Positions 406-48,732 of a stretch of 64,000 nt of DNA are shown one piece after another (positions within the stretch are counted from its first letter, which is position 1; every line of letters starts with the position of its first letter). The translations under genes were made by a program, and so were the position numbers. The notes beneath the pieces were generated by a model. It did not search any database and had not been told where the DNA came from. It saw nothing but the letters and a program-made list of their open reading frames with translations. The DNA is taken from NCBI GenBank assembly GCA_016873635.1, contig VGWJ01000012.1, positions 197-64,196 of the forward strand. Direction: 5' to 3'. Source of the stretch: Lentisphaerota bacterium (GTDB taxonomy: Bacteria > Verrucomicrobiota > Kiritimatiellia > UBA8416 > VGWJ01).

Positions 406-411
406 CGGCGC

Positions 412-1896
412 ATGGCGCTGGCCCTGAAGATAGACGTGCTGAAGCTGATCGAGCACGGCGCCGTGGTCGAGATCCGCCAGGACGTGATCAACGTTCAGGG
501 CCTGACCAACTGCATGAACGGCCAGCTCGTGGAGATCGGCGAGAATGCCGGCCGCGGGGTGATCGTGGGTTATGTGCCCGACCACGTGCTGGTGCTGCTG
601 GTCAAGCAGACCGGGCCCATCAAGCCGGGCGACCGCGTGCGCTCCAGCATGGATGAATTCCGCGTGCCCGTGGGCGAGGCTTTCATCGGCCGCCGCGTCT
701 CGGCGCTGGCCGAGCCGACGGACGGCGGCCCGCCCATCCGCAAGACCGCCACCCAGCCCATCTTCGGCACCGCGCCTTCCGTGATGCAGCGCATTCCCCT
801 CACCGAGGTGCTCGAGACCGGCACGAAGATCATCGACATGATGAAGCCCGTGGGCAAGGGGCAGCGCATGCTGATCATCGGCGACCGCATGACCGGCAAG
901 ACCACGGTGGGCGTGGACGCGATGATCAACCAGCGCGGCAAGAACGTCATCTGCATCTACTGCTGCATCGGCAAGGCCGAGGCGGCGCTGAACCGCGTGC
1001 TGGAGGCCTTCGACGCGGGCCGCGTGTGGGAGTACGGGATCGTCGTGGCGGCCACGGCCTCGGACCCCATGGGCCAGCAGTACCTCGCGCCCTACGTGGC
1101 GGCCAGCCTGGGCGAGTACTTCATGAACGAGAAAGGCGCCGACGTGCTGGTGGTCTTCGACGATTTCACCAAGCACGCCTGGGCCTACCGGCAGATCTCG
1201 CTGCTGCTGGAGCGCGCGCCCGGACGGGACGCCTATCCCGGCGACATCTTCTACATCCATTCCCAGCTCGTGGAGCGCGCCTGCAAGCTCAACCACATCA
1301 AGGGCGGAGGCTCCATGACGCACCTGCCCATCGTGGAGACGCTGCAGGGCGACGTGGCCGGCTATATTCCGTCCAACAGCATCTCCATGACCGACGGCCA
1401 GATCTACATGAACTCCACGCTCTTCGGCGAAGGCTTCAAGCCGGCCATCGACATGGGCCTGTCGGTCTCGCGTATCGGCAACCGCGTGCAGTGGCCGGCC
1501 ATGAAGAAACTCACCGCGATGCTGCAGCTGCAGTTCGTGCGCTACAAGGAGCTGGAGAAGCTCACGCGCATCAAGGCGGGCGTGTCCGCCGACGTCGAGC
1601 AGCGTCTCAAGCGCGGCAAGGTCCTGGAAGAGGTGCTCAAGCAGGAGGCCAACGCGCCGGTGCCCATGGAGGACCAGGTAATCACGCTCTACGCGCTGCA
1701 GAAAGGCTTCCTGGACGGCGTGGAGCCCGCGGACGTGAAGGGGCGCCTGCGTGACCTGGTCGGGCAGGTGCGCCTGCATCGCCCCGACCTCATCGCCGCG
1801 CTGAACGCGCACAAGTCCCTGACGGAGCAGATCAAGGAGGGGTTGGATGAGCAGCTTGGCCGGCTCGCCGGTTCCGCTCTTCAAGATCAAGGTTGA
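412..1896 (+). CDS. atpA: F-type ATPase alpha subunit (paralog 1). The arginine finger is intact.
   Basis: Walker A is GDRMTGKT, and the alpha signatures PYAAASLGEYF and SMTDGQIYMNSTLFGEGFKPAIDMGLSVSRIG are present. The N-terminus is about 20 aa shorter than canonical alpha. The start ATG lies 6 nt after the upstream in-frame stop, so no N-terminal extension is possible. Confidence 0.85.
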   Translation: MALALKIDVLKLIEHGAVVEIRQDVINVQGLTNCMNGQLVEIGENAGRGVIVGYVPDHVLVLLVKQTGPIKPGDRVRSSMDEFRVPVGEAFIGRRVSALAEPTDGGPPIRKTATQPIFGTAPSVMQRIPLTEVLETGTKIIDMMKPVGKGQRMLIIGDRMTGKTTVGVDAMINQRGKNVICIYCCIGKAEAALNRVLEAFDAGRVWEYGIVVAATASDPMGQQYLAPYVAASLGEYFMNEKGADVLVVFDDFTKHAWAYRQISLLLERAPGRDAYPGDIFYIHSQLVERACKLNHIKGGGSMTHLPIVETLQGDVAGYIPSNSISMTDGQIYMNSTLFGEGFKPAIDMGLSVSRIGNRVQWPAMKKLTAMLQLQFVRYKELEKLTRIKAGVSADVEQRLKRGKVLEEVLKQEANAPVPMEDQVITLYALQKGFLDGVEPADVKGRLRDLVGQVRLHRPDLIAALNAHKSLTEQIKEGLDEQLGRLAGSALQDQG

Positions 1897-3328
1897 AGAG
1901 AAGGGCCGGATCAAAGACATCAAGGAGATCATCGTCCGCATCGACGGCCTGCCCACCTGCCTCAACGGCCAGATCGTGGAGATGGGGCCGGACGTCAAGG
2001 GCATCATCATGGGCTACGACAAGTCCGACGTCCTGGCCCTGGTGCTGGGCGACCCCGGCAAGCTTCGCATGGGCAAGGAAGTCTCGGGCGTCAGCGAGCC
2101 GTTCCGCATCCCGGTGGGGGACGGCTACCTGGGGCGCATGATCACCGCGCTGGGCGCGCGCTGCGACCGCGGGGAGGACGTGGAGCCGGACGACTACTAT
2201 CCGGTCTTCCGCGATTCGCCGCCCATAACCTGGCGCGCCCCCGTGGACGAATTCCTTCCCTCGGGCACGAAGATCATCGACGTGATGGTGCCCCTGGCCA
2301 AGGGGCAGCGGCAGCTGATCCTCGGCGACCGCATGACCGGCAAGACGGTCATCGCCCTGGACGCGATCATCAACCAGAAGGGCCGCGACATGGTCTGCAT
2401 CTACTGCTGCATAGGCAAGTCCGTGTCGGCCCTGGAAAAGGTCATGGCCACGCTGCACGACAGGGGCGCGCTGGAATACACCGTGGTCATGGTGGCCACG
2501 GACAACGCTCCCGTGGGCGAGCAGTTCATCGTGCCCTACGCCGCCGCGGCCATGGGGGAGTACTTCGCGGCCTCCGGCCGCGACGTGCTGACGGTCCTGG
2601 ACGATCTTACCAAGCACGCCTGGGCCTACCGTCAGCTTTCCCTGCTGCTCGAGCGCCCGCCCGGCCGCGAGGCCTATCCCGGCGACATCTTCTACGTGCA
2701 GACGCAGCTGATGGAGCGCGCCGGACGTTTCAACGAGGAGCACGGCGGCGGCTCCATCACCTTCCTGGGCATTGCCGAAACGCTGCAGGGCGACCTCACG
2801 GGGTATATTCCCTCCAACCTGGCGTCGATGTGCGACGGGCAGGTCTGCCTGAGCAGCGCCATCTTCGCCGAAGGGTTCCGGCCGGCAATCGACTTCGGGC
2901 TCTCGCTCTCGATCATCGGCGGACGCGTGCAGCCGCGGATCCTCAAGCAGCTGAGCGGCCGCCTGCGGGCGGAATACGCCCAGTACACGGAAGTGGCCAG
3001 CCTGAGCAAGCTGCAGTCGGGACTGTCGGGCGAGGCGGAGCGCGTGCTGAACCGCGGCCAGGCGATCATGTCGGTCCTCCAGCAGGGGCAGAACCGGCCG
3101 GTGGGGCTGGCCGAGGAGGTCCTGCTGCTCTTCGCGCTGAGCCGCGACATGCTCACGTCGCTGGCGGACGACGAGCGCGCGGCTTTCCGGCGGGACATTC
3201 CGGCTTTCGCGCAGAAGGCCGATCCCGGCCTGCTCAAGCGCATCGAGGCGGGCGGCGAGATGACCGCCGACATCGAGGCCGGGCTCGGCAAGCTGATGGC
3301 GGCCTACTTCAGCTCGCTGAAACAGTAG
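1847..3328 (+). CDS. F-type ATPase alpha subunit paralog 2. The conserved SVSR arginine is replaced, so it is likely non-catalytic or degenerate.
   Basis: It is a full-length alpha-like protein with GDRMTGKT and PYAAAAMGEYF. The conserved ...GLSVSRIG motif reads GLSLSIIG here, an R-to-I change at the arginine-finger position. It overlaps the upstream alpha gene by about 50 nt. Confidence 0.8.
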   Translation: MSSLAGSPVPLFKIKVEEKGRIKDIKEIIVRIDGLPTCLNGQIVEMGPDVKGIIMGYDKSDVLALVLGDPGKLRMGKEVSGVSEPFRIPVGDGYLGRMITALGARCDRGEDVEPDDYYPVFRDSPPITWRAPVDEFLPSGTKIIDVMVPLAKGQRQLILGDRMTGKTVIALDAIINQKGRDMVCIYCCIGKSVSALEKVMATLHDRGALEYTVVMVATDNAPVGEQFIVPYAAAAMGEYFAASGRDVLTVLDDLTKHAWAYRQLSLLLERPPGREAYPGDIFYVQTQLMERAGRFNEEHGGGSITFLGIAETLQGDLTGYIPSNLASMCDGQVCLSSAIFAEGFRPAIDFGLSLSIIGGRVQPRILKQLSGRLRAEYAQYTEVASLSKLQSGLSGEAERVLNRGQAIMSVLQQGQNRPVGLAEEVLLLFALSRDMLTSLADDERAAFRRDIPAFAQKADPGLLKRIEAGGEMTADIEAGLGKLMAAYFSSLKQ

Positions 3329-3389
3329 TGGAGGCCGCCGCGCCTGCCCGCCGAAGCCTCCGGGCGAAGGCGGGTTGCGGCACAGGGCA

Positions 3390-3617
3390 ATGAAAGTGAC
3401 GATTCTGAATCCGAAGCACGTGGTGTTCGACGGCGAGGCCGCGAGCGTCTTCCTGCCCGGCGACCAGGCCGAGTTCGAGCTGCTCGATTTTCACGCGCCG
3501 ATCGTGAGCCTGCTGCGGCCCGGCAAGGTGATTGTCGACTGGCGCAAGGCGATCCCGATCAAGCGGGGCATGGTCAAGTTCGATCACAATGAGTGCATGA
3601 TACTGGTGGAGGAGTAG
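3390..3617 (+). CDS. atpC: F-type ATPase epsilon subunit, short form (N-terminal beta-sandwich domain only).
   Basis: MKVTILNPKHVVFDGEAASVFLPGDQAEFELLDFHAPIVSLLRPGKVIV matches the epsilon N-terminal domain. The C-terminal helical hairpin is absent. The listed ORF begins at a TTG (3375), and the ATG at 3390 is preferred. Confidence 0.6.
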   Translation: MKVTILNPKHVVFDGEAASVFLPGDQAEFELLDFHAPIVSLLRPGKVIVDWRKAIPIKRGMVKFDHNECMILVEE

Positions 3618-3648
3618 GGGTCTGGACAGCTTTGTCATATTCCTTGTC

Positions 3649-3837
3649 ATGTTCGTGACGATCATCGGCCCCTCGGCCGTGATCGGCGCGATCGGTCATG
3701 CCAGCATCCGGGCGCTGGGCCGCAATCCCTCGGCGGCGCCCAAGATCCTGCAGGCCATGATCATCGCCCTGGTTTTCGCCGAGGCCATTGCCGTGATCGC
3801 GCTGTTGATACTTTTCCAGTTGTTCGGAAGGGGATAA
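3649..3837 (+). CDS. atpE: F-type ATPase c subunit (proteolipid). The start may be an upstream CTG at 3622.
   Basis: It has two hydrophobic helices joined by a polar loop (GRNPSAAPK), with the conserved carboxylate in helix 2 (VFAEAIAVIALL). There is no Q or E-S/T Na+-binding signature. Confidence 0.65.
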   Translation: MFVTIIGPSAVIGAIGHASIRALGRNPSAAPKILQAMIIALVFAEAIAVIALLILFQLFGRG

Positions 3838-3876
3838 GCGAAAGGTTTCGGCCATACTGAGAAAGGAACCGAGCTC

Positions 3877-4623
3877 ATGCAAGACACAGTCCGCATCCTG
3901 GTGCCCATCGCCGTGGCGCACGTGTTCGTGCTCGTGGCGACGATTATCGTCATCAAGCGGCTTCTGCTCAGCGACTCCCTCAACGCCGTCAACCGCCTGA
4001 AACAGGTCGAGGCCGAAGTGCGGCGCAAGGAGGAGACCGTCCGCCGCGACATCGAGGAGCACGAGAAGGATTTCGCCCGGAAGAAGCTGGCGGCCGAGGA
4101 GGAGCTCCAGCGGCACCGCGAGGAGCAGGAGAAGGAGCTGACGCGCACGCGGGACCAGATCACGGCCGAGGCGCGCAAGGAAGCCGAGAAGATCATCGAA
4201 CAGGCCAGGCGCAACGAGGACAAGTTCCGGAGGCAGATCGCGCAGGACATGGAGGAGAAGGCCGTGGAATACGCCGGCCAGGTCTGCCAGCTGGTCTTCA
4301 GCGAACGCATCAACGCGGAGCTCAACCGGCACTTCGTGGACGAGCTGCTGGCCGCGCTGGACGAACTGGACGCCGGAAGCATAACGGTGGACACGGCCAA
4401 TGCCGAGTTCGCTTCCAGCCATCCCCTGGCGCCCGACCAGCGCGAGCGTCTGGAGAAACTGCTGGCCGACAAGTTCGGAGCCCAGATCAAGGTCAAGGAG
4501 AGCGTGCGCGAGGCCCTGTTGGCCGGGCTCGTGTTCAAGCTGGGCAGCCTGGAGATCGACGGCAGCCTGCTGAACCGCTGCCGCGAGGCCGTGGCGGAGG
4601 TGAAGAAGACGGCGAGAGTATGA
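3877..4623 (+). CDS. atpFH: Fused ATP synthase b/delta subunit (peripheral stalk).
   Basis: It has an N-terminal TM helix and then a highly charged coiled coil (KEAEKIIEQARRNED) as in subunit b. The C-terminus (ALLAGLVFKLGSLEIDGSLLNRCRE) matches the delta/OSCP C-terminal IDGS motif. At 248 aa it is too short for a complete delta N-terminal domain. A good RBS precedes the ATG. Confidence 0.6.
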   Translation: MQDTVRILVPIAVAHVFVLVATIIVIKRLLLSDSLNAVNRLKQVEAEVRRKEETVRRDIEEHEKDFARKKLAAEEELQRHREEQEKELTRTRDQITAEARKEAEKIIEQARRNEDKFRRQIAQDMEEKAVEYAGQVCQLVFSERINAELNRHFVDELLAALDELDAGSITVDTANAEFASSHPLAPDQRERLEKLLADKFGAQIKVKESVREALLAGLVFKLGSLEIDGSLLNRCREAVAEVKKTARV

Positions 4624-4719
4624 CGGGGTTGCTTCGCCGCGCCGGACGCGAAACGGCGGGAAGGGAAGCGGCCCGCTTCCGCGGTTCATTGACGGAGCGC
4701 TCGCGCCGCCCGTGAAACC

Positions 4720-7037
<2,318 letters not shown>

Positions 7038-15928: not shown

Positions 15929-16113
15929 ATGGCCGCGCCGACGCGTTCGCCGGAGCTCGAAGGGCGCAGGGGAGAGCGCGGACCATGAACGCGCGCTGAC
16001 GCGGGGCGCAGCGCTTCCGCGCCGCGTCGGCGCGGGCGTGCGGCGCCGGCTTCAAGCGGTCCAAAGAGAGCGTGACGCGCGTGAGAACGACAACGGATCC
16101 GACAGTCTCCGGC

Positions 16114-17325
16114 ATGGACGCTCCGGTGGAGCGTCGTCTTGCGGCGGAGCGCGGGCGCACGAGCCGCGCGCTGTTCTGGCTGGGCGCCGTCTTCTTCCTT
16201 GTTCTGCTGCTGTCGCTGGCCGTCTTCATGGCCGTCAGCTTCTTCGCGCTGCGCAACGCGGCGGAAACGCGCCGGATCGCGTATGAAACCGACGCCCGGA
16301 CGGCCGCCTTTGCCTCGGACATCATCGGGGCGCAGGCGCGCGCCGACAAGGTGGAGGCGGACCAGCTCAACATGCGCGAAGCCCTCGATGAGACGCGCGG
16401 CGACGTGAAGCGCGAAGGCGAACAGTGGCGCATGGAGGTCGCGAAATTGCGCGAGCTGTTCGAATCCAGGCGCGAAACCGAGGGCAGCGCGATAGCCGGC
16501 ATGGCCACCGGGATCAAGGTGCTGGCCGACGGCGCCGCGGCGCGGGACGCGGCGCTGGCCGCCCTCGCGGACGAGGTGCAGGGACTGGCGACGGCCCTTC
16601 TGGCGCGGGCGGAGACGGCGCCCGCCGGGGCGCCCGCCGGGCCGGACGCGGCCGCGGCGGCTCAGCCGCCGGCCGCGCGCCGATCGCCGGGAGAAGCGGT
16701 CGTGACGGAGGACGCGCCGGAGCCGGCCGCGGCCGACGCCGGCGAAGAGGAGATCCGGGAAGTGGCCGTCATGACGTTCCCGAACGGCGACCGCTACGAG
16801 GGCGAGTTCGAAGACGGTCTTTTCAACGGCGAGGGGACCTACTACTACGCCAACGGCGACCGCTACGACGGCGAGTTTCGCGACGACATGAAGCACGGCC
16901 GCGGCATCTTGAAGTTCGCCAACGGCGACCAGTACAACGGCGAGTTCGCCAACGACCGGATGAACGGCGCGGGCACGATGATCTACGCCAGCCGCAACAA
17001 GTACGTGGGCGAATTCCGCAACGGCATGCGGCACGGCCGGGGTGTGCTCACTTTTCCCAACGGCGACCGCTACGAGGGGGAATTCCAGGACGACGTCCGG
17101 CAGGGCCGGGGCACGTACTCTTTCTCGGACGGCTCCGTGTATGCGGGCGAATTCAAGAACGGCCGGCGGGACGGCAAAGGCCGCTACGTCTATCCCGACG
17201 GCTCCGTCTACGACGGCGAATTCAAGGACGGGCGGAAGCACGGCTACGCCGAGTGCATCTATCCCGGAGGAGAGCTGATCAAGGGCTACTGGGCTGACGA
17301 CCGCTTCGAACGCGCGGCCGAGTGA
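16114..17325 (+). CDS. Membrane-anchored MORN-repeat protein.
   Basis: It has an N-terminal TM, a coiled coil and an Ala/Pro-rich linker. Eight or more MORN repeats follow (YEGEF.DG...G.G; for example FPNGDRYEGEFEDGLFNGEGTYYYANGDRYDGEF). Confidence 0.7.
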   Translation: MDAPVERRLAAERGRTSRALFWLGAVFFLVLLLSLAVFMAVSFFALRNAAETRRIAYETDARTAAFASDIIGAQARADKVEADQLNMREALDETRGDVKREGEQWRMEVAKLRELFESRRETEGSAIAGMATGIKVLADGAAARDAALAALADEVQGLATALLARAETAPAGAPAGPDAAAAAQPPAARRSPGEAVVTEDAPEPAAADAGEEEIREVAVMTFPNGDRYEGEFEDGLFNGEGTYYYANGDRYDGEFRDDMKHGRGILKFANGDQYNGEFANDRMNGAGTMIYASRNKYVGEFRNGMRHGRGVLTFPNGDRYEGEFQDDVRQGRGTYSFSDGSVYAGEFKNGRRDGKGRYVYPDGSVYDGEFKDGRKHGYAECIYPGGELIKGYWADDRFERAAE

Positions 17326-27695: not shown

Positions 27696-27901
27696 GTCCG
27701 TACCCTCCCGTGTGCTCATGCCTGCGGCGTCGCGCGGACGCCGCGTTCGCGTCAGGAAAGAGGCATCCTAGGCCGGAGCGCGGAGCAGTCAATGCTTTAA
27801 GCGCGCTTCCCTGCCGGCATGTTCGGCCGTTTTTTTGCGTTTGCCTGGCGCCCGCCCAGGGCCTAGTCTACGCTCCGCGGTAAGGGCGGGAGAAGGCCAC
27901 A

Positions 27902-28942
27902 GTGAGAATAATGGTAACGGGCGGCGCGGGGTTCATCGGCGGCAATTTCGTGCGCTACATGCTGGACACTTACGCGGACGCGGAAGTGGTCAACGTGGAC
28001 GCGCTCACCTATGCCGGGAACATGGAGAGCCTGGCCGACCTGGCCGCCGACCCGCGGCACGCTTTCGTCAAGGCCGACATCGCCTCCGCGTCCGAAATGG
28101 CCGCGGTGTTCGAGGCGCATGCCGTGGAAGCCGTGGTCAACTTCGCGGCCGAAAGTCACGTGGACCGCAGCCTGCACGTCGGCGCCGGGGCTTTCATCGC
28201 CACGAACGTGTCCGGGGTCCAGGTCCTGCTGGACGCGTGCCGGGAGCGCGGCGTCCGGCGTTTCCTGCAGATCTCCACCGACGAGGTCTACGGCAGCCTC
28301 GGGGCCGCGGGGCGCTTCACGGAGGAGTCGCCCATCCGGCCGAACAATCCCTATGCCGCGACCAAGGCGGGCGCCGATTTCCTGGTGCGGGCGGCCTGGA
28401 AATCGCACGGCCTGGACGCCGTGATCACCCGCTGCTCGAACAACTTCGGCCCCTATCAGTTTCCCGAGAAGCTCATTCCCCTGATGATCGTCAACGCCCT
28501 GGAGGACAGGCCGCTGCCGGTATACGGCGACGGGCTGCAGGTGCGCGACTGGATTTACGTGACCGACCATTGCGCGGCCATTGACGCCGTGCTGCGCCGC
28601 GCCGCGGCGGGACGCGTCTACAACATCGGCGGCAACCACGACGTCACGAATCTCAGCGTCGTCAGGCGGATACTGGCAATCCTGGGCAAGCCGGAGTCGC
28701 TCGTGCGGCACGTCACGGACCGGCCGGGACATGACCGGCGTTATGCGATGGATTCAACGCGCATCCGCGAGGACCTGGGATGGACGCCGCGCCACGCGTT
28801 CGAGGAGGCCCTGGACGCGACGGTGCGGTGGTATCTGGATCACGGGCCGTGGTGGCGGCGCGTGCGCAGCGGCGAGTACCGCGCCTACTATGAGCGGCTG
28901 TACGGCCGCCGCCTGGCCGAGGCGGGGGCGGCGGGGCCATGA
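27902..28942 (+). CDS. rfbB: dTDP-glucose 4,6-dehydratase.
   Basis: It has TGGAGFIG, the YAATKAGAD catalytic YxxxK motif, and the RmlB C-terminal region. Confidence 0.85.
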   Translation: MRIMVTGGAGFIGGNFVRYMLDTYADAEVVNVDALTYAGNMESLADLAADPRHAFVKADIASASEMAAVFEAHAVEAVVNFAAESHVDRSLHVGAGAFIATNVSGVQVLLDACRERGVRRFLQISTDEVYGSLGAAGRFTEESPIRPNNPYAATKAGADFLVRAAWKSHGLDAVITRCSNNFGPYQFPEKLIPLMIVNALEDRPLPVYGDGLQVRDWIYVTDHCAAIDAVLRRAAAGRVYNIGGNHDVTNLSVVRRILAILGKPESLVRHVTDRPGHDRRYAMDSTRIREDLGWTPRHAFEEALDATVRWYLDHGPWWRRVRSGEYRAYYERLYGRRLAEAGAAGP

Positions 28943-29472
28943 ACGAAAAAACGCTTGCGGCCCGCAGGGTGTTTGACGGCCGGCTCCTCAAGGTTGAAGT
29001 TCTTGACGTGGAGCTCTCCGGCGGCGCGCGCGGCACCAGGGATATCGTGCGCCATCCGGGCGCGGCGGCGGCGCTGGTGGAACTGGGCGACGGGAGCTTC
29101 GTTCTGGTGCGGCAGTACCGCAAGGCCGTGGAGGAGGCGCTGCTGGAGATCGTGGCCGGCACGCTGGAGCCCGGCGAGGACCCGGAGGCGTGCGCCGAAC
29201 GCGAGGTGCGTGAGGAGACCGGCTATGCCGTGACCGATATGCGGCGGCTGGGAGATGTGTTCCTGGCGCCGGGCTACTCGTCCGAGCGGATCCACCTGTT
29301 CCACGCCGTGGCGAGCGGGGCGCGGGGCGCGGCCCGCCAGGAGGATGACGAGCGCGTGGAACCGGTGGTGCTGCGCAGAGATGAACTCCAGTCGATGATG
29401 GCCGACGGGCGGATCCGCGATGCCAAGACGCTTGCGGCATGGCTGCTCTATGTGACGCGGGGGGCGGTATGA
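28939..29472 (+). CDS. NUDIX hydrolase (ADP-ribose pyrophosphatase-like).
   Basis: It has the Nudix box GTLEPGEDPEACAEREVREETG. Its start overlaps the rfbB stop. Confidence 0.7.
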   Translation: MNEKTLAARRVFDGRLLKVEVLDVELSGGARGTRDIVRHPGAAAALVELGDGSFVLVRQYRKAVEEALLEIVAGTLEPGEDPEACAEREVREETGYAVTDMRRLGDVFLAPGYSSERIHLFHAVASGARGAARQEDDERVEPVVLRRDELQSMMADGRIRDAKTLAAWLLYVTRGAV

Positions 29473-43898: not shown

Positions 43899-45257
43899 AT
43901 GTTACGCACCGCATGGCTCCTTCCGGCCGTGGCGCTGCTGGCCCGCGCGGCGGCGGCCCTGGGCCCGCACGAGATCCTGCTGCTGGTGAACACGGCGTCC
44001 GACGATTCCGTGGCCGTGGCCGCGCAATACGCCGCGCTGCGCCGCGTGCCCGAGCCGAACGTGATCCGGCTGGCGCTGCCCGGCGGGGCCGCGGCGGCCG
44101 ACGGATCGATTGCGCCCGAGGATTTCGAGCGCCTGATCTGGATCCCGGCCTGGCGCGCGGCGCGCGAACGGGGGGTGGCCGGCCACATCCTGGCCTGGGT
44201 CTATTCGGCCGGCTTTCCGGTTTCCGTCCGGACGCCCGCGCCGGTCTCCATCCACGGGCTGACCTTTGCCCGCAACCGCGCGCCGGATCCCGCGGAGGTG
44301 CGCCGGGCGACGCGCGTCTCGCCGCTCTTCGCCGGACCGCGGGGGCCGGGCGACGGCGCGCACGTGCCGCAGACGTTCGACGCCGCCGCCGAATGGCTCG
44401 GGGACGACATGCCCCTGCCGAGCATGAGCCTGGGATACACCGGCGAGCGCGGCAACTCGCGTGAAGAGGTGATCGCCTGCCTGGTCCGCGGGGCGCGGTC
44501 CGACGGCACGGCGCCGGCGGGAACCGTGTACTTCGTGCGCGGCGATGACGTGCGCTCGACGTGCCGCCACTGGCAGTTTGCGGGCGCGCGGCGCGAGCTG
44601 CTTGCCGCCGGCGTTGACGCCGTCATCACGAACGCCATGCCGCGCGGCGGCGCGGAGGCGATCGGTCTGATGATGGGGGCCGCCTGGGCGGACCCCGCCG
44701 GAATCGCGTTCCGGCCCGGCGCAATGGCGGAGCACCTCACCAGCTCGGCGGCGGTGTTCCATTCCGCCGACCAGACCAAGCTCTCGGCCTGGATCGCGGC
44801 CGGGGCCACGGCCTCGGCCGGCGCGGTCGCCGAGCCGTTTGCCAACTGGCGCAAGTTTCCCGCGGCGCGCTTCTTCGCGCACTACGCGGCCGGGTGCGCG
44901 CTGATCGAAAGCTTGTACCAGTCCATCGCCAGCCCCTTGCAGATATACCTCGTCGGCGACCCGCTGGCTTCGCCCTGGGCCCCCGCGGCGGAAGTCGTCC
45001 TGGAGGGGCTGCCGGAAGGGGACGTATCGGGCGTGCTCTCGGTCGCCGCGCGGGTCCGGGCGGAGCCGGGCGACCATTTCGGACGCTTCCTGTTCCTGCT
45101 GGACGGGCGCGGCGTGGGCCGGGAGCCGACGCTGCGGCTGGACACGGGCGGGTTGGCGGGGGGCGAACATACGTTGCGCTGCGTGGCCTATCGCACCGGC
45201 CTGGCGCGGAGCCAGGCGTTCACGGAGAGGAGTTTCCGCGTGGCGGCGCGCCGCTGA
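43899..45257 (+). CDS. Secreted hypothetical protein.
   Basis: It has a signal peptide ([14 protein letters not shown]). No recognised domain was found. Confidence 0.5.
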
Positions 45258-45301: not shown

Positions 45302-45826
45302 ATGCGCAAGTGCGTTTTTTTCGACCGGGACGGCATCGTGAATCGTTCGCCGGGTCCGGATCGCTACGTGAAGGACTGGTCGGAATTCGAACTGCTGCCG
45401 GAGTTCGTGGACGTGTTGCGCGTGGTGCGGGAGCGCGGCTACGACGCGGTGATCGCCACCAACCAGCGCGGCGTGGCGCGCGGCATGGTGTCCCTGGAGG
45501 CCCTGCACGACATCCACCGCCGCCTGCGCGCGCGGCTGGCGCGGGAGCACGGCCTGGAACTGCTGGACGTGTTCTTCTGCCCGCACGAGGAAGGGGCGTG
45601 CGACTGCCGGAAGCCCCGGCCGGGCATGCTGACCGCCGCGGCCGCGCGGCACGGCATCGACCTGGGAGCGTCGTGGATGGTCGGCGACGACGAACGCGAC
45701 GTGGAGGCGGGGCGCCGGGCCGGGTGCCGCACGATCCGCGTGGCCCCCGCCGGCGTTGCCACCGCGGCCGACTTCCGGGCGGACGATCTGGCGGCGTTGC
45801 GAGCGTTGTTGGCAGGCCTGCCGTAG
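45302..45826 (+). CDS. HAD-IIIA phosphatase, GmhB-like (D,D-heptose 1,7-bisphosphate phosphatase family).
   Basis: FFDRDGIVN is HAD motif I, and GDDERD is the C-terminal motif. Confidence 0.7.
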
Positions 45827-45874
45827 TTGTGGTAGAGTCCCGTTGCGGCTGCCAGCCCAGCCGGGAGGAGTCAC

Positions 45875-47809
45875 GTGGATATCTTCGTTCCCGGGCGCAT
45901 CTGCCTTTTCGGCGAGCACAGCGACTGGGCGGGCAGCTACCGCCGCATCAACGCCTCCATCGGCAAGGGCTTCACGCTGATCGCCGGCACCAACCAGGGC
46001 CTCTACGCGCGGGTGAAAGCGCATCCCTCGCGCCTGATCATGCACTCCACGCCGGGCGAAAACGGCGCGCGGCAGAGCCTGGAGCTGCCCATGGACCGCG
46101 AGGCCCTGCTGGACGAGGCCCGGAAAGGCGGTTTCTTCAGCTATGCCGCGGGCGTGGCCTGCGAGGTCATGACGCACTACAGGGTGCGCGGCCTGGAGAT
46201 CGACAACTACAAGACCGATCTGCCCATCAAGAAGGGCCTCTCCTCGAGCGCGGCGATCTGCGTGCTGGTCGCGCGGGCCTTCAACCGCGTCTACGACCTC
46301 AAGATGACCGTGCGCGGCGAAATGGAGTTCGCCTATCGCGGCGAGATCACCACGCCTTCGCGCTGCGGCCGCATGGACCAGGGCTGCGCCTACGGCAACC
46401 GGCCGGTGCTGATGACCTTCGACGGCGACTGCCTCGACGTGGAGGAGCTGAGCGTCAAGAAGGATCTGTACCTCATCGTGGTGGACCTGGGCGCCGGCAA
46501 GGATACCGTCGAGATTCTCAACCGCCTCAATCACTGTTACCCCTTCGCCGACGGCGAGGTGCAGCGCAACGTGCAGAAGTACCTGGGCGAAATCAGCGCG
46601 GGCATCACGCGCGAAGCCTGCGCCGCGCTGCGCGAGGGTCAGGCCGACCGGCTGGGCGAGCTCATGACCCGCGCCCAGCGCGAGTTCGACCGCTGCGTGC
46701 GGCCCGCCTGTCCGTCCCAGCTCACGGCGCCCGTGCTGCACCGCGTCCTGGACCACGCCGCGCTCAAGCCGTACGTCTGCGGCGGCAAGGGCGTCGGGTC
46801 GCAGGGCGACGGCTCGGCGCAGTTCGTGGCCCGCGACGAGGAGTCCCAACGGCGCGCCATGGAGATCATCCGGCGCGACCTCGGCCTGTCGTGCCTGGGC
46901 CTCGTGCTGCGCACGGGCCGGCGCGTGCGCAAGGCCGTGATTCCCGCCGCCGGGTTCGGCACCCGCCTTTTCCCGGCCACCAAGGCGATCAAGAAGGAGC
47001 TCTTCCCCGTGATCGGCCGGGACGGCCGCATCAAGCCCGTGATCCTGGCGATTGTCGAAGAGGCGCTCAGCGCCGGGATCGAAGAAGTCTGCGTCGTCGT
47101 GCAGTCCGCCGACCGCGGGCTGTTCGAGGATTTCTTCGGCGCGCCGCCGGCCGTCGAGAACTACAACAAGCTTTCGGCGGAAAGCCGCAAGTACAACGAC
47201 TACCTCATGGACGTCGGGCGCCGCGTGACCTTCGTTTGCCAGGACGTGCAGGAGGGCTTCGGGCACGCGGTCTACTGCGCGCGCGATTTCGTGGGCGGCG
47301 AGCCGTTTCTGCTGATGCTGGGCGACCACCTTTACGTTTCGCGCCGCCCCGAATCCTGCGCGCGGCAGATCCTGGACGCCTACGCGCGGGCCGGGCAGAG
47401 CGTCGTGGGCCTGAAGGTTACCGGGGCGCGGGAAGTGCACCACTTCGGATGCGTCGGCGGGGAATGGCGCGAGCCGGAACGGCTGCTGGCGATCACGGAA
47501 TTCCGGGAGAAGCCCGACGCCGAGTACGCGCGCGCCCACCTCGCGGTCGCGGGCATGAATGCCGACGAATTCCTCAGCGTTTTCGGGCTGTACGCGCTCG
47601 ATCCCGCGATCTTCTCGTACCTGGCGGAGCACATCGAGCACAACGTGCGCGAGGGCGGCGAATTCCAGCTCACCTCGTGCCTGGACCGCCTGCGGCAGGA
47701 AATGGGCTGCATGGGCCTCGTCGTGGAGGGAACGCGCTTCGACATCGGCCTGCCGGAATCCTACCGCCGCGCGCTGACGGAGTTCTCCCAATGCCCTGTT
47801 CAGTCGTAA
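45875..47809 (+). CDS. Bifunctional protein with an N-terminal GHMP sugar kinase and a C-terminal sugar-1-phosphate nucleotidyltransferase (GalU-like).
   Basis: [13 protein letters not shown] is GHMP motif 1 and [12 protein letters not shown] is the phosphate-binding motif 2. The C-terminal half has [37 protein letters not shown] precedes the GTG start. Confidence 0.7.
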
Positions 47810-48732
47810 CCGGCGGCGCCGGGTTCCTGGGGTCGCACCTGTGCGATTTCCTGCTCGCGCAGGGCCACCGGGTGATCTGCATCGACAACCTCGTCACCGG
47901 CAACGTCGCCAACATCGAGCACCTGGCCGGCAATGAGAGCTTCCACTTCATCAAGCACGACGTGACCGAGTACGTCTACCTGGCGGGCGAGGTGGATTTC
48001 GTGTTCCATTTCGCGTCGCCGGCCAGCCCGATCGATTACCTGGAGCTGCCGATCCAGACGCTGAAGGTCGGGGCGCTGGGCACGCACAAGGCGCTGGGGC
48101 TGGCGCGGGCCAAGGGCGCGGTGTTCCTGCTGGCTTCCACCTCGGAGGTGTACGGCGACCCGCTGGTGCATCCGCAGACGGAGGACTACTGGGGCAACGT
48201 CAACCCCGTGGGCCCCCGCGGCGTCTACGACGAGGCCAAGCGCTTCGGCGAAGCCATCACCATGGCGTACCGGCGCACCCACGGCATGGACACGAAGATC
48301 GCGCGCATTTTCAACACCTACGGACCGCGCATGCGGGCCTTCGACGGCCGGGCCGTGCCGGCGTTCATCAACCAGGCCCTGCGCAACGAGCCGCTGACCG
48401 TGTTCGGCGACGGGTCGCAGACGCGCAGTTTCTGCTATGTCTCGGACCTCATCGCCGGGATCCACGCGCTGGCCGTGTCGAAGGAGTCCGGCCCCGTCAA
48501 CCTGGGAAATCCGGCCGAGATGACGGTCATGGAACTGGCCCGCGCGATCCTGAAGCTGACGGGCAGCGCGTCGCAAATCGTGCGCAGGCCCCTGCCCGCG
48601 GACGACCCGAAGGTGCGCCAGCCGGACATCGCGCTGGCGGGGCGGGCGCTGGGCTGGGAGCCGCGCGTCTCGCTGGCGGAAGGCCTGCGCGCCACGGTGG
48701 CCTACTTCAGGCCTCCGGCGTCTCGTCGATGA
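47791..48732 (+). CDS. UDP-glucuronate decarboxylase / UDP-xylose synthase-like short-chain dehydrogenase.
   Basis: It has [11 protein letters not shown] and the YDEAKR catalytic motif. Its start overlaps the upstream fusion gene by 19 nt. Confidence 0.75.

What the first reader, a model, noticed from the sequence alone, without database searches (positions are those of the whole stretch)
45302..48732. Compact sugar-nucleotide module with a HAD phosphatase (GmhB-like), a fused GHMP-kinase/nucleotidyltransferase and a UDP-xylose-synthase-like decarboxylase
The kinase-nucleotidyltransferase fusion runs in the opposite domain order to Bacteroides Fkp and is much shorter. Two pathway readings are possible. 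In the first, it is a fused HddA/HddC working with GmhB to make NDP-D-glycero-alpha-D-manno-heptose. In the second, it is a plant-like salvage route in which the kinase makes a sugar-1-phosphate such as GlcA-1-P, the GalU-like half makes the UDP-sugar, and UXS converts it to UDP-xylose. Either reading would be an unusual single-locus route in a bacterium.
Basis: inference. Interest (0 to 1): 0.6.

Follow-up and report, generated by a model that had tools for sequence, protein, structure and literature searches.

The report
Fused sugar kinase and UDP-sugar synthase
The window really does carry a phosphatase gene, a gene for a fused sugar kinase and UDP-sugar-forming enzyme, and a UDP-xylose synthase gene in a row. 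The fusion belongs to a very large, apparently unstudied enzyme family that most likely turns a free sugar into its UDP-activated form, and the three genes are not an obligate single pathway.

Summary
On the + strand lie a 174-aa HAD-IIIA phosphatase (45302-45826), a 644-aa GHMP-kinase/nucleotidyltransferase fusion (45875-47809) and a 313-aa UDP-glucuronate decarboxylase (47791-48732, overlapping the fusion's end by 19 nt).

The fusion is not a frameshift artefact. More than 8000 homologues of about 640 aa share the architecture in many phyla, at 54-79% identity.

- **Kinase half:** by profile and by fold it groups with galactokinases, not with HddA-type heptose kinases or fucokinase. It keeps the GalK sugar-binding signature and catalytic Asp.
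- **Nucleotidyltransferase half:** it is GalU-like.
- **Heptose reading:** not supported.
- **Salvage reading (free sugar to sugar-1-P to UDP-sugar):** supported as a mechanism. The sugar is unresolved: a galacto-type hexose is my leading guess and a uronic acid is the main rival.
- **Link to the neighbours:** weak. Related genomes carry the TIGR03790 gene, HAD and UXS without the fusion, or the TIGR03790 gene, HAD and fusion without UXS. In 23 of 47 species-level loci the fusion has none of these partners.

This is a new variant of a known kind (bifunctional anomeric kinase/pyrophosphorylase, like Fkp or zebrafish GKUP), with reversed domain order and different domain families. I found no paper describing it.

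The parts
43899..45257 (+). TIGR03790-family protein with an N-terminal signal-peptide-like sequence. It is the first gene of the co-directional run. Its function is unknown.
   Evidence: NCBIfam TIGR03790 scores 86.9 bits against a cut-off of 67. It has no Pfam hit and no PDB sequence hit at E<=1. It lies next to the HAD gene in relatives and overlaps it by 4 nt in L061.
45302..45826 (+). HAD-IIIA phosphatase of the GmhB/HisB-N subfamily, with the CxH...CxCRKP loop.
   Evidence: TIGR01656 scores 143.9 bits (cut-off 84) and TIGR01662 scores 109 (cut-off 44.6). The GmhB equivalogs fall below cut-off: NF006506 146 vs 178, TIGR00213 106 vs 149.6, NF050049 87.6 vs 250. The best PDB matches are GmhB 4pnh (2.6e-26) and 3l8h (5e-25); HisB-N 2fpr scores 1.6e-14.
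45875..46909 (+). Kinase half of the fusion (residues 1-345): a GalK-like GHMP anomeric sugar kinase.
   Evidence: Pfam GHMP_kinases_N scores 2e-10, with a sub-threshold GalKase_gal_bdg hit. The profile against PDB gives 1s4e galactokinase at 8.5e-16. The AF2 model has pLDDT 85.8, and Foldseek's top 27 matches are galactokinases. R8, E14, H15, D17 and D168 are invariant.
46922..47809 (+). Nucleotidyltransferase half of the fusion (residues about 350-644): a GalU-like UTP:sugar-1-phosphate uridylyltransferase.
   Evidence: TIGR01099 galU scores 7.4e-52 (176.5 bits, below the 326.8 cut-off). PDB matches are YngB 7o2n at 1.6e-35 and GalU 2ux8 and 3juj. Foldseek gives GalU TM-scores (normalised to the target) of 0.77-0.88. 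The GalU motifs are conserved in an alignment with E. coli GalU.
47791..48732 (+). UDP-glucuronate decarboxylase (UDP-xylose synthase). Its start overlaps the fusion's 3' end by 19 nt, and its 3' end overlaps the convergent gyrA by 26 nt.
   Evidence: Human UXS1 structures 4gll and 2b69 match at E = 4.7e-108 over residues 5-308. Pfam assigns Epimerase and GDP_Man_Dehyd. Orthologues at 76-79% identity sit downstream in L004, L006, L010 and L062.

Best explanation
The 644-aa protein is a self-contained two-step sugar-activating enzyme.

1. Its N-terminal GalK-like GHMP kinase phosphorylates the anomeric hydroxyl of a free sugar with ATP.
2. Its C-terminal GalU-like domain couples the resulting sugar-1-phosphate to UTP, giving a UDP-sugar.

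This is a GalT-independent, Isselbacher-type salvage route on one polypeptide. The sugar is most likely a galacto-configured hexose (galactose or a close analogue). That assignment is inferred, not shown.

The downstream gene is a genuine UDP-glucuronate decarboxylase that makes UDP-xylose. The upstream HAD-IIIA phosphatase is a GmhB/HisB-N-type enzyme whose conserved partner is the TIGR03790 protein rather than the fusion.

The four genes form a lineage-specific neighbourhood in one PVC lineage (labelled Lentisphaerae, Kiritimatiellia or Verrucomicrobia), probably tied to envelope or exopolysaccharide precursor supply. They are not one obligate linear pathway.

Shown here: domain identities, the family's size, the conserved catalytic motifs and the variable gene neighbourhood. 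Inferred: catalytic activity, UTP use and the identity of the sugar.
For: **Architecture is real and ancient.** More than 8000 proteins of about 640 aa share it, at 66-79% identity among the top 120. Forty-nine species-level loci span PVC, Poribacteria, Latescibacterota, Acidobacteria, Chitinivibrionales, Sumerlaeota, Desulfobacterota, Anaerolineae, Oscillatoriales and others.

**Kinase half is GalK-like.**
- The profile against PDB puts galactokinases first (8.5e-16), mevalonate kinase second (1.7e-8) and HddA-type kinases at 1.5e-3 or weaker.
- Foldseek on the kinase-only model (pLDDT 85.8, pTM 0.85) returns galactokinases as its top 27 hits.
- The PGRxxLxGEHxDW and CGRMDQ motifs align with the E. 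coli GalK sugar-binding signature and catalytic Asp. They are near-invariant across 107 representatives of 50%-identity clusters.

**Nucleotidyltransferase half is GalU-like.** This rests. The GxGTRxxPxTK, GxGHAV, EKP and D.G motifs are conserved against E. coli GalU.

**The two activities are coupled but separable.**
- In Oscillatoriales the kinase and the nucleotidyltransferase are adjacent separate genes.
- In Woesearchaeota the same kinase is fused to a different NTP_transferase.
- One Planctomycetota protein fuses a bona fide GalE (TIGR01179, 375 bits against a cut-off of 262) to this kinase, and another protein fuses the kinase to DUF4422.

**The fusion is not an obligate partner of HAD or UXS.**
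- L062 and L063 (plus 12 similar places) carry aroK, the TIGR03790 gene, HAD, UXS (78% identity), gyrA and gyrB with no fusion.
- L061 carries the TIGR03790 gene, HAD and the fusion with no UXS.
- 23 of 47 loci have none of these partners, and the fusion stands alone in large genomes.
Against: - No biochemical data exist for any member that I could find.
- The protein fails the curated equivalog cut-offs for both GalK (53.9 vs 443 bits) and GalU (176.5 vs 326.8), so it is a distinct subfamily whose substrate may differ.
- Family-specific residues near the sugar-binding motifs differ from GalK. They include R/K166 (Ile in GalK), K209 (aligned with GalK Tyr223), W18, and a [11 protein letters not shown] segment in place of motif III. 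These hint at a substrate other than plain galactose, possibly an anionic one.
- None of the 47 loci places the fusion beside galM, galT, galE or a galactose transporter. Instead, 14 of 47 loci place it directly beside a UDP-glucuronate-using SDR: UXS in 4 and UDP-GlcA 4-epimerase in 10. That favours the uronic-acid rival.
- The GalE-kinase fusion is a single-member cluster.
Confidence: 0.6

Rival explanations
1. **Uronic-acid salvage.** The kinase phosphorylates GalA or GlcA at C1. The GalU-like half then makes UDP-GalA or UDP-GlcA. This product feeds the neighbouring UDP-glucuronate decarboxylase (giving UDP-xylose) or the UDP-glucuronate 4-epimerase.
For: - The fusion sits immediately next to a UDP-GlcA-using SDR in 14 of 47 loci, in two different arrangements. 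UXS lies downstream in the window, L004, L006 and L010. A UDP-GlcA 4-epimerase-type SDR lies 27-71 nt upstream in 10 Kiritimatiellia/Victivallales loci.
- In the window, UXS overlaps the fusion's stop codon by 19 nt.
- Conserved extra basic residues sit next to the sugar-binding motifs (R/K166, K209; also R23, R24 and R163 in the fusion clade) and could bind a carboxylate.
- There is precedent: zebrafish glucuronokinase is fused to a bacterial-type pyrophosphorylase (PMC3938481).
- From my own knowledge, plant GalAK is a GalK-like GHMP kinase.
Against: - Five type-B loci (L012, L015, L019, L021, L032) also encode a nucleotide-sugar dehydrogenase within 1.0-3.8 kb upstream of the fusion, immediately next to the epimerase gene. 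UDP-GlcA would therefore be made de novo there.
- Glu14 and His15 are invariant. Their equivalents in GalK bind the neutral 6-OH. From memory, plant GalAK has lost that Glu; I could not verify this because the paper is not held.
- UXS persists without the fusion in a related genome.
- Most loci carry no uronate-related neighbour.
Confidence: 0.25
2. **Heptose-pathway logic applied to another sugar.** The kinase phosphorylates C1 of a sugar phosphate (for example a hexose-6-phosphate). The GmhB-like HAD phosphatase removes the distal phosphate. The GalU-like half then makes the UDP-sugar. This would be an ATP-driven route that bypasses a phosphomutase.
For: - A GmhB/HisB-N-type HAD-IIIA phosphatase lies directly upstream of the fusion in 11 PVC loci.
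- Conserved basic residues near the sugar pocket could bind a phosphate.
- The order kinase, bisphosphate phosphatase, nucleotidyltransferase is the established logic of the HddA/GmhB/HddC pathway (my own knowledge).
Against: - HAD is missing from 36 of 47 loci. It keeps its position beside the TIGR03790 gene and UXS when the fusion is absent.
- Its tightest link, a 4-nt overlap, is to the TIGR03790 gene.
- The kinase resembles free-sugar galactokinases, not HddA, and keeps the Glu/His pair that binds a free 6-OH in GalK.
Confidence: 0.08
3. **The first reader's first reading as written.** The fusion is a fused HddA/HddC that works with GmhB to make NDP-D-glycero-alpha-D-manno-heptose.
For: The HAD protein's best named relatives are GmhB enzymes. 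Some sources name its orthologues heptose 1,7-bisphosphate phosphatase.
Against: - HddA-type structures are poor matches to the kinase half (1.5e-3 and 0.075, against 8.5e-16 for GalK) and are absent from the Foldseek top 50.
- The nucleotidyltransferase half is GalU-type; no HddC or mannose-1-P guanylyltransferase model is among its 24 NCBIfam matches at E<=0.01.
- No SIS/GmhA gene lies within 10 kb.
- The HAD protein is below all GmhB equivalog cut-offs.
Confidence: 0.02

Closest known systems
Bacteroides fragilis Fkp (L-fucokinase/GDP-fucose pyrophosphorylase)
   Same: One polypeptide combines a GHMP anomeric sugar kinase with a sugar-1-phosphate nucleotidyltransferase, taking a free sugar to an NDP-sugar in two steps.
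   Different: Fkp has 949 aa, with the pyrophosphorylase at the N-terminus (with a beta-helix), the kinase at the C-terminus and a 153-aa linker (PMC11982464). It uses GTP. Here the order is reversed and the protein has 644 aa with almost no linker. The kinase is GalK-like rather than fucokinase-like, and the nucleotidyltransferase is GalU-like. Fkp does not appear among the PDB sequence or fold matches.
Zebrafish glucuronokinase/putative UDP-GlcA pyrophosphorylase (DrGKUP)
   Same: A GHMP sugar-1-kinase is fused to a short bacterial-type nucleotidyltransferase, proposed as a UDP-sugar salvage enzyme (PMC3938481).
   Different: In DrGKUP the nucleotidyltransferase is N-terminal and the kinase C-terminal. 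Its kinase is a homologue of plant glucuronokinase. Its pyrophosphorylase activity could not be demonstrated. I could not compare the sequences directly here.
Galactokinase (GalK) combined with a UDP-sugar pyrophosphorylase (the Isselbacher route of plants and trypanosomatids)
   Same: The chemistry is the same: sugar plus ATP gives sugar-1-P, and sugar-1-P plus UTP gives UDP-sugar. The kinase half keeps the GalK signature, the phosphate-binding GLSSSA motif and the catalytic Asp.
   Different: In that route the two enzymes are separate, and the eukaryotic USP belongs to a different, larger pyrophosphorylase family. The kinase here fails the GalK equivalog cut-offs. It has W18, R166 and K209, an 11-residue insertion after the signature, and an altered motif III.
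GalU / YngB UTP-glucose-1-phosphate uridylyltransferase
   Same: The nucleotidyltransferase half has the same fold (TM-score normalised to the target 0.77-0.88; 27-33% identity) and the same catalytic motifs.
   Different: It scores 176.5 bits against the 326.8 cut-off for TIGR01099. It carries several insertions, lacks the GalU C-terminal tail, and is fused to a kinase.
HddA-GmhB-HddC D-glycero-alpha-D-manno-heptose pathway
   Same: A GHMP kinase, a HAD-IIIA phosphatase and a nucleotidyltransferase are encoded together.
   Different: The kinase is not HddA-like and the nucleotidyltransferase is not GDP-type. No GmhA is nearby, and the phosphatase is not an obligate neighbour.

Membership tests
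Galactokinase (GalK) family of GHMP kinases | N-terminal galactose-binding signature (PGRVNLIGEHxDY), including the Arg, Glu, His and Asp that contact the sugar | tested here: met
   The window has [15 protein letters not shown]8, E14, H15 and D17 are invariant in 29 family members and in at least 104 of 108 sequences, and they align with E. coli GalK. Pfam PF10509 scores only 17.7 bits against a cut-off of 23.1. Tyr is replaced by Trp.
Galactokinase (GalK) family of GHMP kinases | GHMP motif II (GLSSSA phosphate-binding loop) and the catalytic Asp in CGxMDQ | tested here: met
   GLSSSAA and CGRMDQ are present and aligned with E. coli GalK. S124, S125, C164, G165 and D168 are near-invariant.
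Galactokinase (GalK) family of GHMP kinases | Score above the curated equivalog cut-offs for galactokinase | tested here: not met
   NF003006 scores 53.9 vs 443, TIGR00131 scores 31.8 vs 226.65 and NF003472 scores 40.1 vs 499. Motif III (GGGFGG) is replaced by [11 protein letters not shown]. This is a distinct subfamily, not a GalK orthologue.
Galactokinase (GalK) family of GHMP kinases | Closest solved folds are galactokinases | tested here: met
   For the kinase-only model, Foldseek against PDB ranks galactokinases 1-27 (2cz9 at 5.3e-19, TM 0.76). Mevalonate kinase first appears at rank 28.
GalU (UTP-glucose-1-phosphate uridylyltransferase) | Equivalog score and conserved catalytic motifs | tested here: inconclusive
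   The motifs are conserved against E. coli GalU and the fold matches. However, TIGR01099 scores 176.5 bits against a cut-off of 326.8. Sugar specificity cannot be tested with these tools.
HddA/GmhB/HddC heptose pathway | Kinase is an HddA-type D-glycero-D-manno-heptose-7-phosphate kinase | tested here: not met
   The kinase profile scores WcbL (4usm/4usk) at E = 1.5e-3 and 6.3e-3 and 3k85 at 0.075, against 8.5e-16 for GalK. None of these is in the Foldseek top 50.
HddA/GmhB/HddC heptose pathway | GmhA (SIS-domain isomerase) encoded nearby, and a phosphatase that meets the GmhB equivalog | tested here: not met
   No SIS-domain gene is among the called genes within 10 kb. The GmhB models all fall below cut-off: 146 vs 178, 106 vs 149.6 and 87.6 vs 250.
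UDP-glucuronate decarboxylase (UXS) | Full-length similarity to characterised UXS, with the SDR catalytic motifs | tested here: met
   Human UXS1 structures match at 4.7e-108 over residues 5-308, and the next-best family is 67 orders of magnitude weaker. The [14 protein letters not shown] and YDEAK motifs are visible in the sequence. Enzyme activity was not tested.
Fkp-type bifunctional kinase/pyrophosphorylase | N-terminal pyrophosphorylase with beta-helix, a long linker and a C-terminal fucokinase-type kinase | tested here: not met
   The domain order is reversed and the two halves abut within about 5 residues. Fkp's architecture is taken from PMC11982464. The fusion works like Fkp but is not a member.

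The most novel reading that the evidence does not exclude
The kinase half does not act on a plain neutral sugar. It acts on an anionic one: a hexose-6-phosphate, a uronic acid or a sulfated sugar. In the sugar-phosphate version, the fusion and the GmhB-like phosphatase would together apply heptose-pathway logic (anomeric kinase, distal-phosphate phosphatase, uridylyltransferase) to a UDP-hexose. That would be an ATP-driven bypass of phosphomutase, used by many uncultured phyla. The conserved R/K166, K209 and K305, and the recurrent neighbours (HAD, APS kinase, UDP-GlcA enzymes), do not exclude this.
Probability: 0.1. Interest if true: 0.75.

Novelty: new variant of a known kind. Interest (0 to 1): 0.45.

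Why it matters
If the inferred activity is right, a very large and very conserved enzyme family has gone uncharacterised. It has more than 8000 sequence clusters and occurs in PVC bacteria, Poribacteria, Latescibacterota, Acidobacteria, Desulfobacterota, Anaerolineae and filamentous cyanobacteria, among others. The family would give bacteria a one-protein, GalT-independent way to activate a free sugar to its UDP form.

This matters in three ways:

- **Metabolic models.** Models of polysaccharide-degrading and polysaccharide-producing uncultured lineages would need to include this route.
- **Genome annotation.** The protein is currently annotated as 'GHMP kinase', 'mevalonate kinase' or 'sugar phosphate nucleotidyltransferase'.
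- **Biocatalysis.** One-pot synthesis of UDP-sugars currently needs separate kinase and pyrophosphorylase enzymes.

The work also corrects the idea that HAD, the fusion and UXS form one compact pathway.

Tried and rejected
**Readings tested and rejected**
- Frameshift or assembly join of two genes. Rejected: the ORF is uninterrupted, identical on independent contigs, and shared by more than 8000 homologues.
- The heptose pathway. Rejected on the kinase and nucleotidyltransferase subfamilies, the absence of GmhA and the HAD scores.
- A sugar-cluster context in the window. Checked and not found: the rest of the 64 kb is housekeeping (ATP synthase, T2SS, SurA, KARI, UvrD, EF-G, NifSU, malic enzyme, AroK, GyrAB, EF-P, Obg). 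The only other sugar-related genes are an RmlB-like SDR and a NUDIX gene at about 27.9-29.5 kb.

**Approaches that led nowhere**
I used PDB profile and fold ranking instead.
- The plant GalAK paper that would verify the Glu-to-Ala point is not held.
- Two look-ups of other window proteins failed, probably because my start codons differed from the called genes.
- Five literature searches found no description of this fusion.
- Contexts of stand-alone kinase relatives were heterogeneous (SelO; GT2 plus GT4; an AGE-family epimerase) and gave no substrate clue.
- The TIGR03790 protein has no PDB sequence relative.
- The promoter and terminator scan was uninformative.


Full report
**What is there.** Four co-directional genes lie on the + strand.

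| Gene | Coordinates | Product length |
|---|---|---|
| TIGR03790-family protein with a signal-peptide-like N-terminus | 43899-45257 | 452 aa |
| HAD-IIIA phosphatase | 45302-45826 | 174 aa |
| GHMP-kinase/nucleotidyltransferase fusion | 45875-47809 | 644 aa |
| SDR (UDP-xylose synthase) | 47791-48732 | 313 aa |

The gaps between the first three genes are 44 and 48 nt. The last gene overlaps the fusion's end by 19 nt and overlaps the convergent gyrA by 26 nt. The rest of the window is housekeeping, with no polysaccharide gene cluster and no SIS/GmhA gene within 10 kb. NCBI holds the identical HAD protein under the label 'Lentisphaerae bacterium'. The window has about 68% G+C.

**The three proteins.**
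- **SDR.** It is a UDP-glucuronate decarboxylase by any reasonable standard. Human UXS1 structures match at 4.7e-108 over the full length, far above any other SDR family.
- **HAD protein.** It belongs to the GmhB/HisB-N subfamily. It passes TIGR01656 and TIGR01662, but it misses all three GmhB equivalog cut-offs. Its best solved relatives are GmhB enzymes at 1e-21 to 1e-26, and HisB-N scores 1e-14. 'GmhB-like' is therefore fair, but membership is not established.
- **Fusion.** It carries GHMP_kinases_N at residues 90-174 and NTP_transferase at 353-634. GalU (TIGR01099) is the best model for the second half, at 176.5 bits against a cut-off of 326.8.

**The fusion is a real and very large family.**
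- A database search returned 8000 scored hits, all significant. The top 120 are 635-677 aa long, carry both Pfam domains and are 66-79% identical to the window protein.
- A scan of one genome per species found 49 loci. They come from Lentisphaerae, Kiritimatiellia, Verrucomicrobia, Latescibacterota, Acidobacteria, Chitinivibrionales, Poribacteria, Sumerlaeota, Desulfobacterota, Neomarinimicrobiota, Anaerolineae, Spirochaetia and Oscillatoriales cyanobacteria.
- The gene is identical on independent JGI contigs. A frameshift join is excluded.
- Identity to the window protein is 66-70% inside the window's own lineage, where gyrA is 62-74% identical. It is about the same, 65-68%, to proteins of unrelated phyla. 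I have no explanation for this plateau. Very strong constraint and horizontal spread are both possible.

**The kinase half.**
- A profile of 29 kinase halves searched against all PDB sequences puts archaeal galactokinases first (1s4e at 8.5e-16, 2cz9 at 4.9e-13). Mevalonate kinase follows at 1.7e-8. The HddA-type kinases WcbL (1.5e-3 and 6.3e-3) and 3k85 (0.075) are far behind, and Fkp is not detected.
- The AlphaFold model of the kinase half (pLDDT 85.8, pTM 0.85) gives galactokinases as Foldseek ranks 1-27.
- Aligned with E. coli GalK, the family keeps the sugar-binding signature (PGRxxLxGEHxDW), the GLSSSA loop and the catalytic Asp in CGRMDQ.
- Across 107 representatives of 50%-identity clusters, R8, E14, H15, D17, D168, K209 and K305 are each conserved in at least 104 of 108 sequences. 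R or K at position 166 is conserved in 99 of 108.
- The family differs from GalK in several ways. It has Trp for Tyr after the signature and an 11-residue insertion there. It has Arg or Lys where GalK has Ile before MDQ, and Lys where E. coli GalK has Tyr223. [11 protein letters not shown] replaces motif III.
- It fails every GalK equivalog cut-off.

I therefore file it as a GalK-like anomeric kinase of a distinct subfamily, not as a galactokinase.

**The nucleotidyltransferase half.**
- Its best solved relatives are YngB and GalU (1.6e-35 to 1e-30).
- The full-length model (pLDDT 82.5) superposes on GalU structures with TM-scores (normalised to the target) of 0.77-0.88.
- The GalU motifs are conserved against E. 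coli GalU. There are several family-specific insertions and no C-terminal tail.

**Evidence that the two halves work together.**
- In Laspinema and Oscillatoria the two halves are adjacent separate genes.
- In Woesearchaeota the same kinase (50% identity) is fused to a different NTP_transferase.
- A search of 1.84 billion representative proteins with the kinase half found 1761 relatives. About half are stand-alone kinases of roughly 350 aa.
- Other architectures include one Planctomycetota protein with a bona fide GalE at its N-terminus (TIGR01179, 375 bits against 262). There is also a kinase-DUF4422 fusion, and there are eukaryote-like fusions to Ysc84, RING or SET domains.
- Repeated fusion to nucleotidyltransferases and to a 4-epimerase fits the sequence sugar, sugar-1-P, NDP-sugar.

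**Is it one pathway with HAD and UXS?** I tabulated 47 species-level loci.

| Context | Arrangement | Loci |
|---|---|---|
| Type A | TIGR03790 gene, [HAD], fusion, [UXS] | 13 (HAD in 11; UXS in the window, L004 and L006) |
| Fusion then UXS only | no TIGR03790 gene and no HAD | 1 (L010) |
| Type B (Kiritimatiellia/Victivallales) | [nucleotide-sugar dehydrogenase], UDP-GlcA 4-epimerase-type SDR, fusion, [GDP-mannose dehydratase or APS kinase], RmlB, RmlA | 11 |
| No conserved partner | none | 23 |

- The type-B SDR matches 5u4q at 1e-118 and the B. cereus UDP-GlcA epimerase 6zl6 at 8e-55.
- In large genomes the fusion is solitary.
- Decisively, orthologues of the HAD protein led to loci with the same synteny but no fusion: aroK, the TIGR03790 gene (51% identity), HAD, UXS (78% identity), gyrA and gyrB (L062 and L063 plus 12 similar places).
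- They also led to a locus with the TIGR03790 gene, HAD and the fusion but no UXS. There the HAD gene overlaps the TIGR03790 gene by 4 nt (L061).
- Every sub-combination of the four genes therefore exists. Simple gene loss from one ancestral block explains the pattern.
- The phosphatase's steady partner is the TIGR03790 gene, not the fusion.

**Which sugar?** This stays open.
- **For a neutral galacto-type hexose:** the intact GalK signature, including the Glu/His pair that in GalK binds the 6-OH; the GalK-like fold; the GalE fusion; and the GalU-like partner.
- **For a uronic acid:** the fusion sits directly beside a UDP-glucuronate-using SDR in 14 of 47 loci, in two different arrangements. 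Extra conserved basic residues flank the sugar-binding motifs.
- **Against the uronic acid:** a nucleotide-sugar dehydrogenase is encoded within 1.0-3.8 kb upstream of the fusion in five type-B loci. From memory only, plant GalAK lacks the Glu that is invariant here.
- **For a sugar-phosphate substrate with the HAD protein as bisphosphate phosphatase:** only the lineage-specific adjacency.

I put about 0.8 on the general mechanism of kinase then uridylyltransferase giving a UDP-sugar. Within that, I put roughly 0.35-0.4 on a galacto-type hexose, 0.25 on a uronate and 0.1 on an anionic or phosphorylated substrate.

**Comparison with known systems.**
- The enzyme works like Fkp and like zebrafish GKUP. 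Both of those have the nucleotidyltransferase first and use different kinase subfamilies (PMC11982464; PMC3938481).
- It also works like the separate GalK plus UDP-sugar pyrophosphorylase pair of the Isselbacher route.
- Five full-text searches found no paper on a bacterial kinase-first GalK-like/GalU-like fusion. That is absence in the held library, not proof of absence.

**Verdict.**
- **Observation:** confirmed.
- **Interpretation:** partly supported. The salvage mechanism is supported, the heptose reading is not, and the obligate three-gene pathway is not.
- **Novelty:** a new variant of a known kind.
- **Interest:** moderate. The chemistry is unsurprising. What deserves an enzymologist's attention is the family's size, its cross-phylum conservation and its lack of any characterised member.

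Noticed in passing
window 43899-45257: A TIGR03790-family protein with a signal-peptide-like N-terminus heads the operon. It has no Pfam domain and no PDB sequence relative. It is the steady partner of the HAD phosphatase in relatives, with a 4-nt overlap in L061. Its function is unknown. From memory, this family tracks exosortase-carrying genomes.
   Followed up: partly
L062:4581-7492 and L063 (GCA_046766275.1 and JGI 3300072955): A related genome keeps aroK, the TIGR03790 gene, HAD, UXS, gyrA and gyrB in the same order but lacks the kinase/nucleotidyltransferase fusion between HAD and UXS.
   Followed up: yes
L019:4545-13307; also L015, L018, L020-L023, L032: Kiritimatiellia/Victivallales loci put the fusion inside a precursor-supply cluster. 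The cluster holds a nucleotide-sugar dehydrogenase, a UDP-GlcA 4-epimerase-type SDR, the fusion, APS kinase, RmlB and RmlA. In L019 a GT2 and a decaprenyl-phosphate phosphoribosyltransferase-like UbiA enzyme (NF008977, 237 bits against a cut-off of 234) follow. The APS kinase next to the fusion in 10 loci suggests a link to sulfated polysaccharide synthesis.
   Followed up: partly
L043:7001-8996, L044:7001-9044: In Oscillatoriales cyanobacteria the kinase and the GalU-like enzyme are separate adjacent genes. A conserved 225-aa membrane protein with no Pfam hit follows them.
   Followed up: partly
P0215, P0157, P0130, P0136, P0184 (relatives of the kinase half): The kinase family also occurs fused to a bona fide GalE, to DUF4422, and to Ysc84, RING or SET domains in what look like eukaryotic proteins from metagenomes.
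   Followed up: partly
fusion family as a whole: Identity to the window protein plateaus at about 65-70%, whether the relative is in the same PVC lineage (where gyrA is 62-74% identical) or in another phylum. Either unusually strong constraint or horizontal spread could cause this; it is unexplained.
   Followed up: partly
window 48707-48732: The 3' ends of the UXS gene (+) and gyrA (-) overlap convergently by 26 nt. The same arrangement is seen in L062.
   Followed up: no
window 27884-29472: An RmlB/GDP-mannose-dehydratase-like SDR (27884-28942) is followed by a NUDIX hydrolase (28894-29472). These are the only other nucleotide-sugar-related genes noticed in the window.
   Followed up: no
window 406-7037: An ATP synthase cluster holds three ATP-synt_ab family genes (406-1896, 1823-3328, 5481-7037), with delta (OSCP) and gamma subunit genes between them. 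This gene order is atypical.
   Followed up: no
window 16000-17325: A protein with five MORN repeats (174 bits) lies next to the type II secretion / pilus assembly genes.
   Followed up: no
L035:7189-8163: In an Anaerolineae MAG an inositol-monophosphatase/CysQ-family gene starts 50 nt after the fusion. It could relate either to inositol-derived glucuronate or to PAP removal after sulfation.
   Followed up: no
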